From: a virus
Lineage: Duplodnaviria > Heunggongvirae > Uroviricota > Caudoviricetes
DNA: 40,324 nucleotides
Virus record (IMG/VR): IMGVR_UViG_2872169409_000001
Reading direction: 5' to 3' (one strand)
This document shows positions 31,301 to 37,300 of the stretch, in pieces. The position numbers were made by a program. Numbering within the stretch: position 1 is the first letter of the stretch; the number at the start of each line of letters is the position of its first letter.

Positions 31301-34300
31301 AACGCTCCGAGCGTAAATGACATCGGCAATACGCTTCAGCTTATCAGGCAGAACAATGATATTGAGCGTTCAGGCGCTAACAATGTTGGGCTGACTGCTT
31401 TGCAAGGCCTTTCAGGTATTGCGGGGGTGTTTCAGCAGGAAAAGCAGGCTCAGCGGCAGAAAGAATTTCAGCAGGCATACGCTAATGCTTATGCGTCTGG
31501 TGATCGCGGTGCTTTGCGTCAGTTGGCTACTCAATATCCAGAACAGATTGAATCCGTTCGTAAAGGCATGGGATTCATTGATGAAGATCAGCGTAATTCT
31601 ATCGGCACCTTAGCGGCTGGCGCACGCCTTGCGTCATCGTCTCCAGAAGCAATGCAATCATGGCTGCAAAACAACGCCGGTGAGTTAGCTCGTGTTGGCG
31701 TTAATCCTCAGGACGTCGCTCAGATGTACCAACAGAACCCGCGGCAGTTCGGCGAATTTGTCGATCACCTGGGGATGAACAGTCTCGGACCCGAAAAATA
31801 CTTTGACCTACAGGATAAAATGCAGGGTCGCCAGGTTACCATGCGCGGTCAGGATCTGGATTCGCAAACCGCCGCTCGGAATCAGGCAATCACAATGCGC
31901 GGACAAGATATCCAGGCGAATTTAGGTCAGCAGCGCATTAATCTGGACGCAGAAACAAACCGCATTAACAACGAAAATAAGCGCCTTGACCGGATGCTAT
32001 CAGCAGAAACTAACGACCTGAAGCGCCAGGAAATACAGAGCCGCATAGCAGCCAACAACCAGCAGTTGCAGCAGAAGCAGCAAGCGCTAAATGATGGCTA
32101 CAAAGACGGCATCAACACCCTCACAACCAGCATTTTCACTCTGAACGATATCGTTAGTTCTACTTCACTTAAGAGCATTACAGGCTTACGTGGAGTAATC
32201 CCCAACGTTCCAGGCTCACAGGCTGCAGACACTCAGGCACGACTTGATACCTTTAAATCACAAGCATACCTGACAGCGGTTCAGGCCATGCGAGGCATGG
32301 GCGCACTTTCTGATGCCGAGGGCAAAAAGCTCGACCAGGCTGTTGGTTCGCTGCAGAACTCGCAGAGCGAGGAGTCCTTTCGTCGCAACGCTGGCGTCAT
32401 CCTGAACACGCTCAACCAGAAGCGTAATGAGGCGGTTGGTAAGTACGTTCAGCAAAACGGTATCAAGCGAGTGGAAGCGCCTCAGGCTTCTATAGATTAC
32501 CTGAAGCAGCACCCCGAGCTGTCAATCGACTTCATTAATCGCTACGGATATCTTCCATCTTTGGGGCAGTAAATGGCTAATTACCGTGATTTGTTAGAGC
32601 AGGCTGGCGCACGTTACGGTGTGCCAGAAGGGTTGATGACTGCACTGGGTGCCAAGGAGTCTTCTTACAACCCTGCCGCAGTAAGCTCCGCCGGGGCTGT
32701 AGGATTGACTCAGGTCATGCCTGGGACATGGCGTGATATGGGTTATACCGATGAGCAAATGCAAAACCCCGAATATCAGGCTGACGCTGGCGCGCGCTAT
32801 CTGGCAAAGATGTACCAGCAGTTTGGTAACTGGCGTGACACTCTTCAGGCTTATCACGACGGTCCCGGCAACGTTATGAAGGCAAAGCGTGGTGAATATA
32901 CACCAGGACCTGAAGGCCGCGGTTACGTTGATGATCGCTTTGCTCAATGGGCTGGTGACCCGGTGACAGACTCAACAGTCGAACAGCGCGCCACCTCTGC
33001 AAAGGTACATCCTCAGCAAGACCCTAACAACCCGTTTGCACAACTGGAAGTACAGTTATCCGAACAAGTATCGGCATCAGGTGTGCAGTCAGACCCAAAT
33101 AATCCATTTGCTCAGATTGAGCAGCAGGCAGCCAGTCAGCAGCCACCTCAACCCGTAAGTTCTGTCGCACCGAAACCTGTTCAGCAGCAAGGCGGAATAA
33201 TGTCTGACTTTGGTAATGGACTTGCTGAAACCGGGCGCGGCTTACTACAGGCAGGAATCAACGTAGCGAACATACCTGCTGAACTCACTGATGCTGTAAC
33301 AAGCGCGGCGGCTTGGGCTGGCGGTAAACTCGTTATTGGCGATGGTACATATCAACCAGCGCCACGAGTAACAACGCAGGGATTAGAGCAGGACTTTGGC
33401 CTTCAGCAAGGCGCGCTGACTCCACAAACGACAGAGGGAAGGGTATTTGCTGAAGCATTGCCTTACCTCACTCCTGCTGGCGTTGAGAGAGCGGCAGCAC
33501 AGGCACCAACACTTGCTGGTCGAATTGCTCAGGGGGCAACTCGCCTTCTCGCTGAAAACGCAGTTGGATCACTTGCTGCAAATAGTGCGAAAGATGATGC
33601 GGAAGCACTCGCCACCGATTTAGGCGTTGGCGTTCTGGCTGGCGGCGCTATTAACTCTGCCGGACGTGGATTAGGCGCTGCTTATCGTGGCGTTCGTGGT
33701 GCTATTGCACCAGAAGCGCAGCAAGCTATCAGATTTGCAGAGCGTGAAGGAGTGCCTCTGCACACCACAGACCTGTTACAACCAACTTCCCGCGTCGGAA
33801 AAATGGCGCAGACTACAGCAGAAAATATCCCTCTGGCTGGCACAAGCGGAATGAGAGCAACGCAACAGGAAGCGAGAAGCCAGTTGGTGCAGAGATTTGC
33901 TGATAAATTCGGTGAGTATGATCCAGCTGTTGTTATTGACAGCCTTAAAGCGAAAACATCAGGAATTCGTCGTGCTGCTGGGAACCGTCTTGAGCAGGTA
34001 CAGAATGCAATGGCAGGAATCAACATTCAACCTGCCAGAGCAATTCAGCAGATAGATACTGAGATATCTAACCTGCAGAAGCTTGGTAAGGTCGCTGATA
34101 ACGAGACGATTTCAAAACTTCAATCCTATCGTGATGAGCTTATTCGCAATGCTGGTCCTGATGGTCCGGTAAATCTGGATTTGAAGCAATTAAGCGATCT
34201 ACGCAGCCAGTTCAGAATGGACGTGAAGGGTGAGAGACCAGTGCTACCAAACCGTTCCGATGCCGCCATTCAGCGCGTTTACAAGTCGATGACAGACGAT

Positions 34301-37300
34301 ATCAATGGTGCCATTGGTCAGAATCTTGGCAATGATACTCTCCGTAAATATCAGCAGGCCAATGCCGTCTACGCTGACGAAGCGGCGAAACTAAAGAATA
34401 CCAGGCTGAAGAATGTTCTCATGAAAGGCGACCTGACACCGGAAGTTGTCAACAACATGCTATTCAGCAAGAACAAATCGGAAATTAAGACGCTGTATAA
34501 CTCAGTTGGTCGTGTTGGCAGGGCGCAAATGCGCAATGGCATCATTGGAAAGGCGATGGAGAAATCTGGCGGATCCCCTGACCAGTTCCTTCGACAGCTT
34601 AACATCCTGCAAAACCAGACTGGCATCACATTTAAGGGGCAGGACGCTGCTTATCTGAAAGGATTGAAAAACTACCTGCAATCCACGCAGCAGGCTGCAA
34701 AAGCGGCAGTAACAACACCAACAGGGCAGCAAACCATCCCGTTCATTATCGGATATGGGACAGCAATGAACCCTGCGACAACTGGCGCAGCGGTAAGCTA
34801 CGGACTTCTTACTCGCGCATATGAGAGCGAGCCATTCAGAAATGCAATGCTCCGAATGGCAAACACCCCACGCGGATCAACAGCCTTTGAGAAAGCCATG
34901 CAGCAAGCGCAAAAAGCGATTAATGCACTGACGCAGGGTGCTAAGTCTGATGCGTTGTCAGAATAGCTTCGCAAACACCAGGAACGTGCAAAAACCAAAT
35001 ATGTAGAATGCAATATTCATCATATCTCTTTGCATAAATCCTCCGTAATGGATGGTTAGTTGCTGTCTTTTTTATATAGCTCCTTGAGCGTATCAAAGAC
35101 AATTTTCTTAACCATATCAGATTGTTGTTCTGCTATACGCTCTGCATCGTCAATGTAAACTGATGCAGAGTTTTGTTTATCCAGTGATTCTTCAATCGCT
35201 GCAATTATCTCTGAGTTCAGAGACCTGTTATTCATCTTCGCACGCTGCTTAATTTTCGCGTGGAGTTCATGCGGAAGTCTCAAGTGAAACTGCGCCTCGT
35301 CGTATTTGCTGTACATCCTTGATGCCTCACCAGTTGGGTGGAATGGCATCGTAATCTACTGGATAAATACTCAATAGTACCATTTCGGTATGCAATCGCA
35401 TCATGGTTGCATCATATCATTCGTCTGGAGCAATGAAATGTCAGATATCACCGCAAATGTTGTGGTCAGCATGCCTTCGCAACTCTTCACTATGGCTCGT
35501 TCTTTTAAAGCCGTAGCCAATGGCAAAATTTATATCGGTAAAATTGACACTGACCCGGTAAATCCTGAAAACCAGATTCAGGTTTATGTAGAGAATGAAG
35601 ACGGATCTCACGTCCCTGTTTCTCAGCCAATTGTTATCAATGCTGCCGGATATCCTGTGTACAACGGGCAGATTGCCAAATTTGTAACTGAGCAAGGCCA
35701 TTCAATGGCTGTATATGATGCGTATGGTTCGCAGCAGTTCTATTTTCAGAATGTGCTGAAGTACGACCCTGATCAGTTCGGTCCGGATTTAATTGAGCAA
35801 CTAGCTCAATCCGGTAAGTATTCGCAGGATAACACCAAAGGCGATGCCATGATTGGCGTCAAGCAGCCTTTACCAAAAGCAGTTTTAAGAACTCAGCATG
35901 ACAAAAATAAAGAAGCAATAAGTATCCTGGATTTTGGTGTTATTGATGATGGTGTGACAGATAATTACCAGGCAATACAAAATGCAATAGATGCCGTTGC
36001 TTCACTACCCTCCGGCGGGGAGCTGTTTATCCCTGCGAGCAACCAAGCGGTGGGGTATATTGTTGGATCCACTTTGCTTATTCCTGGCGGTGTTAACATC
36101 AGAGGGGTTGGTAAGGCATCGCAACTCCGAGCAAAAAGCGGACTTACAGGATCTGTGTTAAGGCTGTCTTATGATTCAGACACTATCGGCCGTTATCTGA
36201 GAAATATACGAGTAACTGGTAATAACACCTGCAATGGTATTGACACAAACATTACAGCAGAAGACTCTGTCATCAGACAGGTTTATGGCTGGGTATTTGA
36301 TAATGTAATGGTGAATGAAGTTGAAACCGCTTATTTAATGCAAGGGCTCTGGCACTCAAAATTTATAGCATGTCAGGCTGGAACCTGTAGAGTCGGTCTT
36401 CACTTTTTAGGCCAGTGCGTAAGTGTTAGTGTCAGCTCCTGCCATTTCAGCAGAGGAAATTATTCTGCTGATGAAAGCTTTGGCATCAGGATTCAGCCTC
36501 AAACGTATGCGTGGTCGTCAGAGGCAGTTAGGTCAGAAGCAATAATTTTAGACAGTGAGACCATGTGCATTGGTTTTAAAAATGCCGTCTATGTTCATGA
36601 TTGCCTTGATTTGCATATGGAACAACTGGATTTAGATTATTGCGGCTCAACAGGCGTGGTTATAGAGAATGTAAACGGAGGATTTTCTTTCTCAAACTCA
36701 TGGATAGCAGCAGATGCCGATGGCACTGAACAATTTACGGGGATATATTTTAGAACGCCGACCTCAACGCAGTCACATAAAATTGTCAGTGGTGTTCATA
36801 TCAACACTGCAAACAAAAACACGGCTGCAAACAATCAAAGTATAGCGATAGAACAGTCGGCGATCTTCGTCTTTGTAAGTGGTTGTACGTTAACTGGTGA
36901 TGAATGGGCTGTAAATATTGTCGACATCAATGAATGTGTTTCTTTCGATAAGTGCATATTCAATAAGCCTCTACGCTATCTTCGTAGCGGTGGCGTGTCA
37001 GTTACTGACTGTTATTTGGCTGGCATTACCGAGGTGCAGAAACCGGAAGGCAGATACAATACGTATCGTGGCTGTTCAGGCGTACCGTCTGTAAATGGGA
37101 TCATTAATGTCCCAGTTGCGGTAGGTGCCACAAGCGGATCTGCAGCTATACCGAACCCGGGGAACCTGACATACAGAGTAAGAAGCCTTTTTGGTGACCC
37201 TGCATCAAGTGGTGACAAGGTTAGTGTTTCCGGGGTGACAATTAATGTTACTCGCCCAAGCCCAGTAGGAGTCGCGCTGCCTTCAATGGTTGAGTATCTG

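What the first reader, a model, noticed from the sequence alone, without database searches (positions are those of the whole stretch)
32573..34966. Ejection protein with N-terminal lytic transglycosylase domain and internal DPNNPFAQ duplication
The gp16-position protein is 797 aa, versus about 609 aa for P22 gp16 as I recall. It begins with about 130 aa carrying SLT motifs (ES, GLTQVMP, aromatic Y). Two near-identical peptide repeats, QDPNNPFAQLE and SDPNNPFAQIE, follow at about 33011..33130. This suggests the ejected protein itself digests peptidoglycan during DNA delivery.
Basis: partly seen in the sequence, partly recalled or inferred. Interest (0 to 1): 0.45.

Follow-up and report, generated by a model that had tools for sequence, protein, structure and literature searches.

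The report
Ejection protein carrying a wall-cutting domain
A P22-family prophage encodes a DNA-injection protein whose front end is a cell-wall-cutting (lytic transglycosylase) domain like that of phage T7; the feature is real but already labelled in public databases, and the only fresh detail is a conserved pair of short peptide motifs next to the enzyme domain.

Summary
ORF 32573..34966 (+) encodes a 797-aa protein in the gp16 slot of a P22-like prophage, in the order gp14-gp7-gp20-gp16-tailspike. Residues 1-128 are a family-1 lytic transglycosylase domain (Pfam SLT, E=9e-25). Its Glu29 aligns with the catalytic Glu of Slt70 (E478) and of T7 gp16 (E37). DPNNPFAQ occurs twice, at aa 150-157 and 174-181.

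The gene is a mosaic. A 209-aa N-terminal cassette (SLT plus linker) is shared with Sf101, Huey and Dewey. It is joined at about nt 33185 to an Sf6 gp13-type body. P22, Sf6 and HK620 gp16 lack the domain.

The exact protein is already in RefSeq as WP_134798374.1, "lytic transglycosylase domain-containing protein". Its cluster at 90% identity has 1295 members, and 70 of 5426 complete E. coli genomes carry the cassette. The main finding is therefore already known at annotation level, and it works like T7 gp16-N.

Two details I did not find in the searchable literature:
- The "duplication" is a pair of selected short motifs, N-x-F-[A/D]-[Q/E]-[F/Y/L/I]. It occurs exactly twice in six of the seven lineages tested by regex, and a wider IMG/VR scan gave the same pattern with a few variant cores.
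- The gp16 N-module is inherited 1:1 with the gp20 C-terminal tail (78 of 78 loci). This hints at a T7-like "tape" docking interface, which remains unproven.

The parts
32573..34966 (+). gp16-class ejection (DNA transfer) protein gene, 797 aa, mosaic
   Evidence: ORF listing. phrog_770 'DNA transfer protein' matches aa 108-797 at E=2e-237. Gene order is gp14/gp7/gp20 upstream and tailspike downstream. The exact protein is WP_134798374.1.
32573..32956 (+). Family-1 lytic transglycosylase (SLT) domain, aa 1-128
   Evidence: Pfam PF01464 matches aa 7-110 at E=9e-25. AF2 pLDDT is 89-98 over aa 1-110. Top Foldseek hits are Slt, Slt70 and MltE. Identity to T7 gp16 aa 10-139 is 28%.
32657..32659 (+). 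Codon GAG for Glu29, the predicted catalytic acid of the E-S motif
   Evidence: Aligns with Slt70 E478 and T7 gp16 E37. Invariant in 70 homologues and in all 14 surveyed copies. Codon checked directly.
32957..33202 (+). Q/P/S-rich linker (aa 129-210) that carries the conserved QRATSAK block and the two motifs
   Evidence: Composition. Low AF2 confidence, with short helices at aa 154-168 and 178-188. Alignment with distant SLT-gp16 fusions.
33020..33049 (+). Motif copy 1, DPNNPFAQLE (aa 150-159). This is the copy positionally conserved after the SLT domain in other genera.
33092..33121 (+). Motif copy 2, DPNNPFAQIE (aa 174-183). It is specific to this lineage; lytic relatives carry their second copy at the extreme N-terminus instead.
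   Evidence: Seven of the nine identical residues use different codons in the two copies.
33185..33190 (+). Mosaic junction. To the left the DNA is 97.9% identical to Sf101; to the right it is 93.6% identical to Sf6 gene 13.
   Evidence: blastn block boundaries; protein comparison.
33203..34966 (+). Sf6 gp13 / P22 gp16-type body (aa 211-797)
   Evidence: tblastn gives 97% identity to Sf6, 75-78% to L/ST64T-type and 34% to P22 gp16. No Pfam family and no solved structure by sequence.
31778..32572 (+). gp20 C-terminal part, ending in the tail ..FINRYGYLPSLGQ. It is co-inherited with the gp16 SLT cassette as one mosaic block.
   Evidence: Similarity to Sf6 is lost between 31777 and 33185. This gp20-C type accompanies the SLT module in 14 of 14 loci and no other gp16 N-module in the remaining 64 gp20/gp16 pairs listed. 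Tail class and N-module class pair 1:1 in 78 of 78 loci.

Best explanation
This is the gp16-class ejection protein of a P22-like (Lederbergvirus) prophage of Shigella flexneri. The short N-terminal module seen in Sf6 (77 aa) has been replaced by a 209-aa cassette. The cassette is an active-looking family-1 lytic transglycosylase domain followed by a flexible linker with two copies of a short motif.

Inferred mechanism, by analogy with P22 and T7. The protein is packaged in the capsid with gp7 and gp20. It is expelled through the tail channel after adsorption and refolds in the periplasm. Its SLT domain, using Glu29 as general acid, cleaves MurNAc-GlcNAc bonds locally, so that the gp20/gp16 trans-envelope conduit can cross the murein layer. 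The C-terminal body engages the inner membrane as in P22 and Sf6.

Shown here: the ORF, domain, catalytic residues, fold, gene order, mosaic structure and motif conservation. Inferred: virion packaging, ejection, enzymatic activity and timing. More speculative: that the linker motifs help to dock gp16-N on the gp20 C-terminus.
For: - Domain and catalytic residues.
- Fold.
- There is no signal peptide or lipobox; the protein starts MANYRDLLEQAG, directly at the first SLT helix. The domain can therefore reach the periplasm only by ejection or lysis.
- Gene order gp14-gp7-gp20-gp16-tailspike, and a body 97% identical to Sf6 gp13 and 34% identical to P22 gp16.
- P22 gp7, gp16 and gp20 are ejected before the DNA and build the conduit (PMC10883804; PMC8402733).
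- T7 gp16-N is the precedent for a transglycosylase on an ejected protein (PMC8954989).
- The phage has its own holin, endolysin and Rz cassette at 18102-19319, so the SLT domain is not needed for lysis.
- The cassette is intact, with catalytic residues kept, in all 14 surveyed copies and on at least 4 different bodies. It is also present in lytic relatives in Skarprettervirus, Murrayvirus and Sortsnevirus.
Against: - No experiment was done: activity, virion presence and ejection are all inferred.
- In P22 the virion murein hydrolase has been assigned to gp4 (PMC5380687). This phage keeps a gp4 homologue at 27236-27814, so the SLT domain may be redundant or needed only under some conditions, as in T7.
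- Motif III reads AYHDG instead of the usual AYNxG. The His is conserved in all phage homologues examined.
[quoted passage not shown] That statement rests on P22, Sf6, HK620 and CUS-3; Pfam finds no SLT in P22, Sf6 or HK620 gp16, and CUS-3 was not examined here.
Confidence: 0.8

Rival explanations
1. The SLT domain is catalytically dead. It serves only as a peptidoglycan-binding anchor or as a structural 'wing' of the conduit.
For: In the T7 post-ejection structure the gp16 N-domain also has a structural role as 'wings' of the gp15 tunnel (PMC8954989). Motif III deviates (AYHDG).
Against: All residues invariant across 70 SLT homologues, including E29 and S30, are kept. They are also kept in every surveyed copy, down to 58-66% identity. 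That is the pattern expected for an enzyme under selection.
Confidence: 0.08
2. The SLT domain acts at the end of infection as an auxiliary lysis enzyme rather than at entry.
For: It is a murein-degrading domain made late in infection. No entry role has been demonstrated.
Against: A complete holin, endolysin and Rz cassette exists elsewhere in the window. The domain has no export signal and is fused to a virion ejection protein. It sits in the same position as T7 gp16-N.
Confidence: 0.03
3. The fusion is an assembly or annotation artefact, and the SLT part is really a separate gene.
For: In Kosakonia phage Kc166B the SLT part (310 aa) and the body (734 aa) are annotated as two ORFs.
Against: The 797-aa frame is uninterrupted in this window, in IME10, in at least 11 independent IMG/VR contigs and in a 1295-member cluster. 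The end of the Kc166B SLT ORF looks like a frameshifted version of the Kc259 sequence.
Confidence: 0.01
4. The two DPNNPFAQ peptides are a functionally neutral recent tandem duplication within a low-complexity linker.
For: They lie in a Q/P/S-rich region with low AF2 confidence. AF2 gave no confident docking of the region on the SLT domain or on the gp20 tail.
Against: - Seven of the nine identical residues use different codons.
- Both cores are unchanged in copies where the spacer between them has diverged completely (L040, L152, L154).
- A related motif occurs exactly twice in six of the seven SLT-gp16 lineages tested with the regex. A wider IMG/VR scan found the same two-copy pattern, with variant cores in four of 39 distinct N-modules (L150, L159, L162, L163).
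- Copies within one protein resemble each other more than copies between proteins: 8 of 5040 permutations reach the observed value.
Confidence: 0.15

Closest known systems
Phage T7 gp16 (internal virion protein D), N-terminal lytic transglycosylase domain plus 'molecular tape'
   Same: Both are ejected internal proteins encoded third in the ejection-gene trio. Both carry an N-terminal SLT domain with the catalytic Glu at the equivalent position (E29 and E37), at 28% identity over 130 aa. In both, the domain is followed by an extended linker of about 70-80 aa. In T7 that linker binds the C-terminal domain of the preceding protein, gp15.
   Different: The body shows no detectable similarity to T7 gp16: phrog_342 matches only aa 3-191. 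The protein is 797 aa against 1318 aa. P22-like phages have no ordered core stack (PMC8954989). Homology of the linkers is not established; there is only a suggestive AKPFAKDFWE in the T7 tape region.
Sf6 gp13 and P22 gp16 (P22-like ejection protein gp16)
   Same: Same gene position. The body (aa 211-797) is 97% identical to Sf6 gp13 and 34% identical to P22 gp16.
   Different: Sf6, P22 and HK620 gp16 have no SLT domain. They carry short unrelated N-modules beginning MAKAWKDV.. or MKVTANGKTF...
gp16-position proteins of Sf101 (gp13, 'transglycosylase'), IME10, Huey, Dewey, APC_JM3.2 and phiKp_30
   Same: The same SLT-plus-motif cassette at 98-99% identity. IME10 and phiKp_30 also share the Sf6-type body.
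   Different: Sf101 (911 aa) and APC_JM3.2 share a different body type. The bodies of Huey and Dewey were not compared here; only nt 1-618 of the query match them. The gene is unannotated in the IME10 RefSeq record.
'DNA transfer protein' of lytic P22 relatives (Skarprettervirus, Murrayvirus IME_EC2, Sortsnevirus IME279, Kosakonia Kc259, Stutzerimonas STP9)
   Same: SLT domain at 50-62% identity in the gp16 slot after gp7 and gp20. The same conserved post-SLT block and motif. Related gp20 tails..YG[Y/F]LPEG[I/L].
   Different: These proteins are about 1000 aa, with a 30-40-aa leader that carries one motif copy at the extreme N-terminus. The phages are virulent.
E. coli Slt70 and MltE (family-1 lytic transglycosylases)
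   Same: Catalytic domain fold and motifs.
   Different: These are cellular, Sec-exported or lipoprotein enzymes with other accessory domains. Here the domain has no signal sequence and is delivered by a virion.
P22 gp4 (tail adaptor reported as the P22 virion murein hydrolase)
   Same: The proposed task is the same: local murein opening at entry (PMC5380687).
   Different: It is an unrelated protein in a different virion location. This phage also has a gp4 homologue, so it would carry two candidate wall-opening activities.

Membership tests
Family-1 lytic transglycosylases (Pfam SLT, PF01464) | Match to the family profile above the curated threshold | tested here: met
   86.9 bits against a cut-off of 21.3, E=9.1e-25, aa 7-110.
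Family-1 lytic transglycosylases (Pfam SLT, PF01464) | Catalytic Glu in the E-S motif | tested here: met
   E29-S30. E29 aligns with Slt70 E478 and T7 gp16 E37, and is invariant in 70 homologues.
Family-1 lytic transglycosylases (Pfam SLT, PF01464) | Motif II (G-L-x-Q) and motif III (A-Y-N-x-G) | tested here: met
   G44-L-T-Q47 is present. Motif III is A93-Y-H-D-G97: Y94 and G97 are invariant, with His replacing the usual Asn in all phage relatives.
Family-1 lytic transglycosylases (Pfam SLT, PF01464) | All-alpha, goose-lysozyme-like fold | tested here: met
   AF2 pLDDT is 89-98 over aa 1-110. Foldseek probability is 1.00 to Slt (5ohu), Slt70 (1qte), MltE and the T7 core gp16 (7eyb_I).
Family-1 lytic transglycosylases (Pfam SLT, PF01464) | Cleaves MurNAc-GlcNAc with formation of 1,6-anhydroMurNAc | not testable with these tools
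   Requires a zymogram or muropeptide LC-MS.
P22-like gp16 ejection (E) proteins | Gene directly downstream of the gp7 and gp20 homologues and upstream of the tailspike | tested here: met
   PF25688 (gp7), PF16928 (gp20) and PF09008 (tailspike head-binding domain) flank the ORF.
P22-like gp16 ejection (E) proteins | Sequence homology of the body to P22 gp16 and Sf6 gp13 | tested here: met
   97% identity to Sf6 gp13 and 34% to P22 gp16 over about 570 aa. phrog_770 E=2e-237.
P22-like gp16 ejection (E) proteins | Present in virions and released before the DNA; associates with the inner membrane | not testable with these tools
   Known for P22 gp16 (PMC10883804). Not measured for this protein.
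T7 gp16-type internal virion protein D | N-terminal transglycosylase domain on the third ejection protein | tested here: met
T7 gp16-type internal virion protein D | Homology of the remaining (about 1100 aa) body to T7 gp16 | tested here: not met
   phrog_342 ('internal virion protein with endolysin domain') matches only aa 3-191. BLASTP against T7 gp16 aa 1-268 aligns only aa 2-119. The protein therefore works like T7 gp16-N but is not a member of the T7 gp16 family.

The most novel reading that the evidence does not exclude
The two N-x-F-[A/D]-[Q/E]-[F/Y/L/I] motifs beside the SLT domain, together with the co-inherited gp20 C-terminal tail (..YG[Y/F]LP..), may form the P22-group counterpart of the T7 gp16 'molecular tape' to gp15 C-terminus interface. 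On this reading it is a modular docking code spanning the gp20/gp16 gene boundary. It would tether the transglycosylase to the end of the periplasmic tube and determine which gp20 and gp16 variants can work together. That would explain why mosaic breakpoints avoid the gene boundary (78 of 78 loci) and why the two motif copies co-vary within a protein.
Probability: 0.25. Interest if true: 0.5.

Novelty: already known. Interest (0 to 1): 0.25.

Why it matters
Practically, this is a correctly spotted but ordinary, already-annotated domain fusion. It has some value in three respects.

1. [quoted passage not shown] The cassette is in 14 of 82 surveyed gp16 genes and in 70 of 5426 complete E. coli genomes.
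2. It shows that the N-terminus of gp16 is a slot for exchangeable cassettes.
3. The paired motif and the strict gp20-tail / gp16-N-module coupling give a concrete, testable handle on how the still unresolved P22-type ejectosome is put together.

Tried and rejected
- AF2 of the N-module alone, and of the gp20 C-tail (70 aa) joined to gp16 aa 1-209. The motif and tail regions had pLDDT 45-66 and showed no confident docking, so the result is inconclusive. No PAE or coordinates were available.
- A PDB sequence search with the body found no solved relative.
- NCBIfam has no family above cut-off for this protein.
- The large protein-database search with the N-module returned mostly short SLT fragments. 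It was useful only as an MSA and not for tracing the motif.
- The genome-contig scan with gp7 gave only 9 loci.
- Casjens & Thuman-Commike 2011, Casjens & Grose 2016 and Swanson et al. 2021 are not held. I could not check whether the SLT cassette or the gp20/gp16 boundary module was already described there. From memory, the 2011 paper catalogues gp16 and gp20 mosaic sections and may mention it.
- The accession guessed for CUS-3 was wrong: it returned Fels-2. CUS-3 gp16 was not examined.
- Base composition shows nothing foreign about the cassette.
- Resemblances recalled from memory to the colicin TolB box (..NNPW..) and to the T4 capsid-targeting peptide were considered and dropped. Most motif variants lack the Pro, and nothing tested bears on them.
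- Opposite-strand ORFs inside the gene (32594-32947, 33682-34026, 34369-34629 and others) have no support and are treated as chance.

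
Full report
**Observation.** The window is a P22-like (Lederbergvirus) prophage. The exact protein of the finding is on record from a 4.6-Mb Shigella flexneri contig. The nearest sequenced phage is IME10, at 96.6% nucleotide identity over the gene. ORF 32573..34966 (+) encodes 797 aa. It begins immediately after the gp20 stop codon, in the same frame. Upstream lie homologues of P22 gp14 (DUF2824), gp7 (PF25688) and gp20 (PF16928). Downstream lie an Mnt/Arc-like repressor on the minus strand and a tailspike. P22 gp16 is 609 aa.

**The N-terminal domain.**
- Pfam SLT (PF01464) matches aa 7-110 at E=9e-25.
- By sequence against the PDB, the best relatives are Slt70, MltC and MltE, and the T7 gp16 chains are also hit.
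- In the printed alignment E29 lies opposite Slt70 E478. That residue is the catalytic acid from established knowledge of Slt70, which I recall rather than tested.
- A pairwise BLASTP with T7 gp16 aligns aa 2-119 to T7 aa 10-139 at 28% identity and places E29 opposite E37. PMC8954989 names E37 as the catalytic Glu.
- In an alignment of 70 homologues, E29, S30, A42, G44, Q47, Y76, Y94 and G97 are invariant.
- An AF2 model has pLDDT 89-98 over aa 1-110. It matches Slt, Slt70, MltE, MltF and the T7 core protein by Foldseek at probability 1.00.
- The protein has no signal peptide; it starts at the first helix of the domain.
- The phage has a separate lysis cassette: holin 18102-18425, endolysin 18409-18885 and Rz 18882-19319. 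It also has a gp4 homologue.

**The body and the mosaic.**
- Residues about 211-797 are 97% identical to Sf6 gp13, 72-78% identical to the L/ST64T-type proteins and 34% identical to P22 gp16.
- The body has no Pfam family and no solved relative.
- At the DNA level, window 30081-33190 is 97.9% identical to Sf101 and 33185-35036 is 93.6% identical to Sf6. Similarity to Sf6 is lost between 31777 and 33185.
- Relative to Sf6, one block has therefore been exchanged: the C-terminal three-fifths of gp20 (aa 180-443 of 443) plus the first 205 codons of gp16.
- Sf6 has a different 77-aa N-module. Sf101 has the same SLT cassette on an unrelated 700-aa body.
- Pfam finds no SLT in P22, HK620 or Sf6 gp16, but finds it in Sf101, in an HK620-like hybrid (L102) and in Skarpretter.

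**How common and how well known.**
- I surveyed 89 loci retrieved through the conserved gp7 gene. Of 82 gp16-position proteins classified, 14 carry the cassette. It is joined to at least four body types: Sf6-type (797 aa), L-like (790 aa), Sf101-type and HK620-like (875 aa).
- A second IMG/VR scan with an SLT alignment found further lengths of 815, 836, 886, 911 and 922 aa.
- The cassette is in 70 of 5426 complete E. coli genomes. A gp7 homologue is in 1203 genomes.
- PGAP names the gene 'lytic transglycosylase domain-containing protein'. Sf101 gp13 is deposited as 'transglycosylase', and Kc259, RSK1 and others carry similar names. PHROGs has a family for the cassette, phrog_21143.
- The same architecture is standard in the lytic relatives Skarprettervirus, Murrayvirus and Sortsnevirus.
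- In the searchable literature I found no study of this domain in P22-like phages. One review says it is absent from them. Genome papers mention it only as an annotation.
- The finding is therefore real but already known at annotation level, and it is functionally a T7 gp16-N analogue.

**The repeats.** These are the part that repays a second look.
- In the window the two copies share 9 of 11 residues, but 7 of those 9 use different codons. This is not a recent DNA duplication or gene conversion; the peptide itself is conserved.
- In diverged copies of the cassette (L040, L152, L154; 79-96% SLT identity) the spacer between the copies has changed completely, while both cores read DP[N/D/S]NPFAQ[L/I]E.
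- An alignment with the lytic relatives shows that copy 1 sits in a conserved post-SLT block, QRATSA[K/R]..N-x-F-[A/D]-Q-[F/L].
- Those phages also have a second copy, but at the extreme N-terminus. Examples are MANVFDQF/GGNVFDQF (Skarpretter), MANFFDQF/SGNFFDQF (IME279), MANPFAQF/SNNPFAQF (Kc259), MANMFAQY/EGNLFAEY (Kc166B) and MANMFAKY/AGNMFGQY (L159).
- The window type begins MAN|YRDLLEQAG, as if the leader had been lost and the second copy placed downstream.
- The regex N.F[AD][QE][FYLI] hits exactly twice in six of the seven SLT-gp16 lineages tested (the exception is STP9). It hits never in P22, Sf6 or HK620 gp16, and nowhere else in the six-frame translation of the window. The regex was defined after seeing the sequences.
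- Across seven lytic lineages, the two copies in one protein resemble each other more than copies from different proteins: 8 of 5040 permutations reach the observed value. The sample is small and not corrected for phylogeny.
- AF2 models each motif as the start of a short, low-confidence helix and does not dock it on the SLT domain.

**Coupling with gp20.**
- The window-type gp20 C-region accompanies the SLT cassette in 14 of 14 loci and none of the remaining 64 gp20/gp16 pairs listed.
- More generally, the last residues of gp20 and the first residues of gp16 pair 1:1 in 78 of 78 loci across five classes:
  - ..YGYLP[S/P]LGQ with MANYRD (SLT)
  - ..SLWGD with MAKAWK
  - ..FTVE with MKVTANGK
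  - ..KYLGGQ with MAYSRE
  - ..GQWQPM with MATNVG
- This holds although the ..SLWGD tail sits on six gp20 lengths and each gp16 N-module sits on several bodies.
- Lytic SLT-bearing phages have related tails..YGYLPEGI..FGFLPEGL and ..YGFLPEGL.
- Adjacency and lack of flanking homology could produce this linkage without any function.
- It nevertheless mirrors T7, where the gp16-N 'tape' after the SLT domain stabilises the C-terminal domain of gp15.
- It also fits the finding that the last 33 aa of P22 gp20 are essential.
- The T7 tape region contains AKPFAKDFWE, and a Przondovirus has NTPYAKDFWE. This is a lead, not evidence of homology.
- An AF2 run on the gp20 tail joined to gp16-N gave no confident contact.
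- I rate the docking-interface reading at about 0.25.

**Verdict.** The protein is a gp16-class ejection protein carrying a T7-like N-terminal lytic transglycosylase that most likely opens the murein locally during DNA delivery (confidence about 0.8; activity and ejection are inferred). It is not a member of the T7 gp16 family, because the bodies are unrelated, but it works like T7 gp16-N. It is already annotated in RefSeq and common in enterobacterial prophages, so its novelty is low. The paired motif and the gp20-tail / gp16-N module are modest, testable additions.

Noticed in passing
window 31778-33190; loci L014-L102: The gp20 C-terminal tail class and the gp16 N-terminal module class pair 1:1 in 78 of 78 P22-like loci across five classes. 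Both flanking regions recombine freely, so the mosaic unit spans the gene boundary.
   Followed up: yes
L073 9058-11337, L024 9091-11370, L150 from 4492 (886 aa): Some gp16 variants carry a different domain of roughly 95-130 aa (RGLLEKGNIDIHNRPVVKN..GKHLGMFDNPDDATAYAESLH) at the same N-terminal slot. In L150 it follows the SLT cassette. It has no Pfam, PHROG or PDB match, but it recurs in internal or structural proteins of epsilon15-like (SPN1S), Klebsiella, Aeromonas, Proteus and Rhizobium podophages.
   Followed up: partly
P0132 (665 aa); phage records VSe13 and S9-5: Sf6-type gp16 proteins that lack the SLT domain are nevertheless named 'lytic transglycosylase domain-containing protein' in NCBI records. 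P0132 has no NCBIfam hit. The name appears to have spread from the fused proteins through the shared body.
   Followed up: yes
L001 6001-8394 (IME10, NC_019501): The RefSeq record of the closest phage, IME10, has no annotated feature over its intact 797-aa gp16 gene. The whole record has only 27 features.
   Followed up: yes
L012 3908-4840 and 4854-7058 (Kosakonia phage Kc166B): The SLT part and the body are annotated as two ORFs. The tail of the first ORF looks like a frameshifted version of the Kc259 sequence, so this is probably a frameshift, either real or a sequencing error.
   Followed up: partly
L015 and L016, 9035-10765 (E. coli ECMA0423, S. flexneri SFBU1023); also L109, L123, L143: Truncated SLT-gp16 genes of 569-576 aa (Sf101-type body cut short) occur in several prophages. 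This may reflect prophage decay.
   Followed up: no
L103 596-1400 (T7 gp16 aa 203-212); L104: The T7 'molecular tape' region contains AKPFAKDFWE, and Przondovirus KKP 3708 has NTPYAKDFWE. Both are reminiscent of NNPFAQLE and NPFAQF.
   Followed up: partly
window 26551-27336 (+): An ORF with a WDGH domain (PF25311, E=4e-39) sits between the coat gene and the gp4 homologue. IME10 has only a short gap at that position.
   Followed up: no
window 35056-35349 (-) and 35390-37309 (+): An Mnt/Arc-type repressor gene lies between gp16 and the tailspike. The tailspike DNA is 99% identical to that of Sf6, while the ejection genes are of Sf101 type. This is another sign of the mosaic make-up.
   Followed up: no
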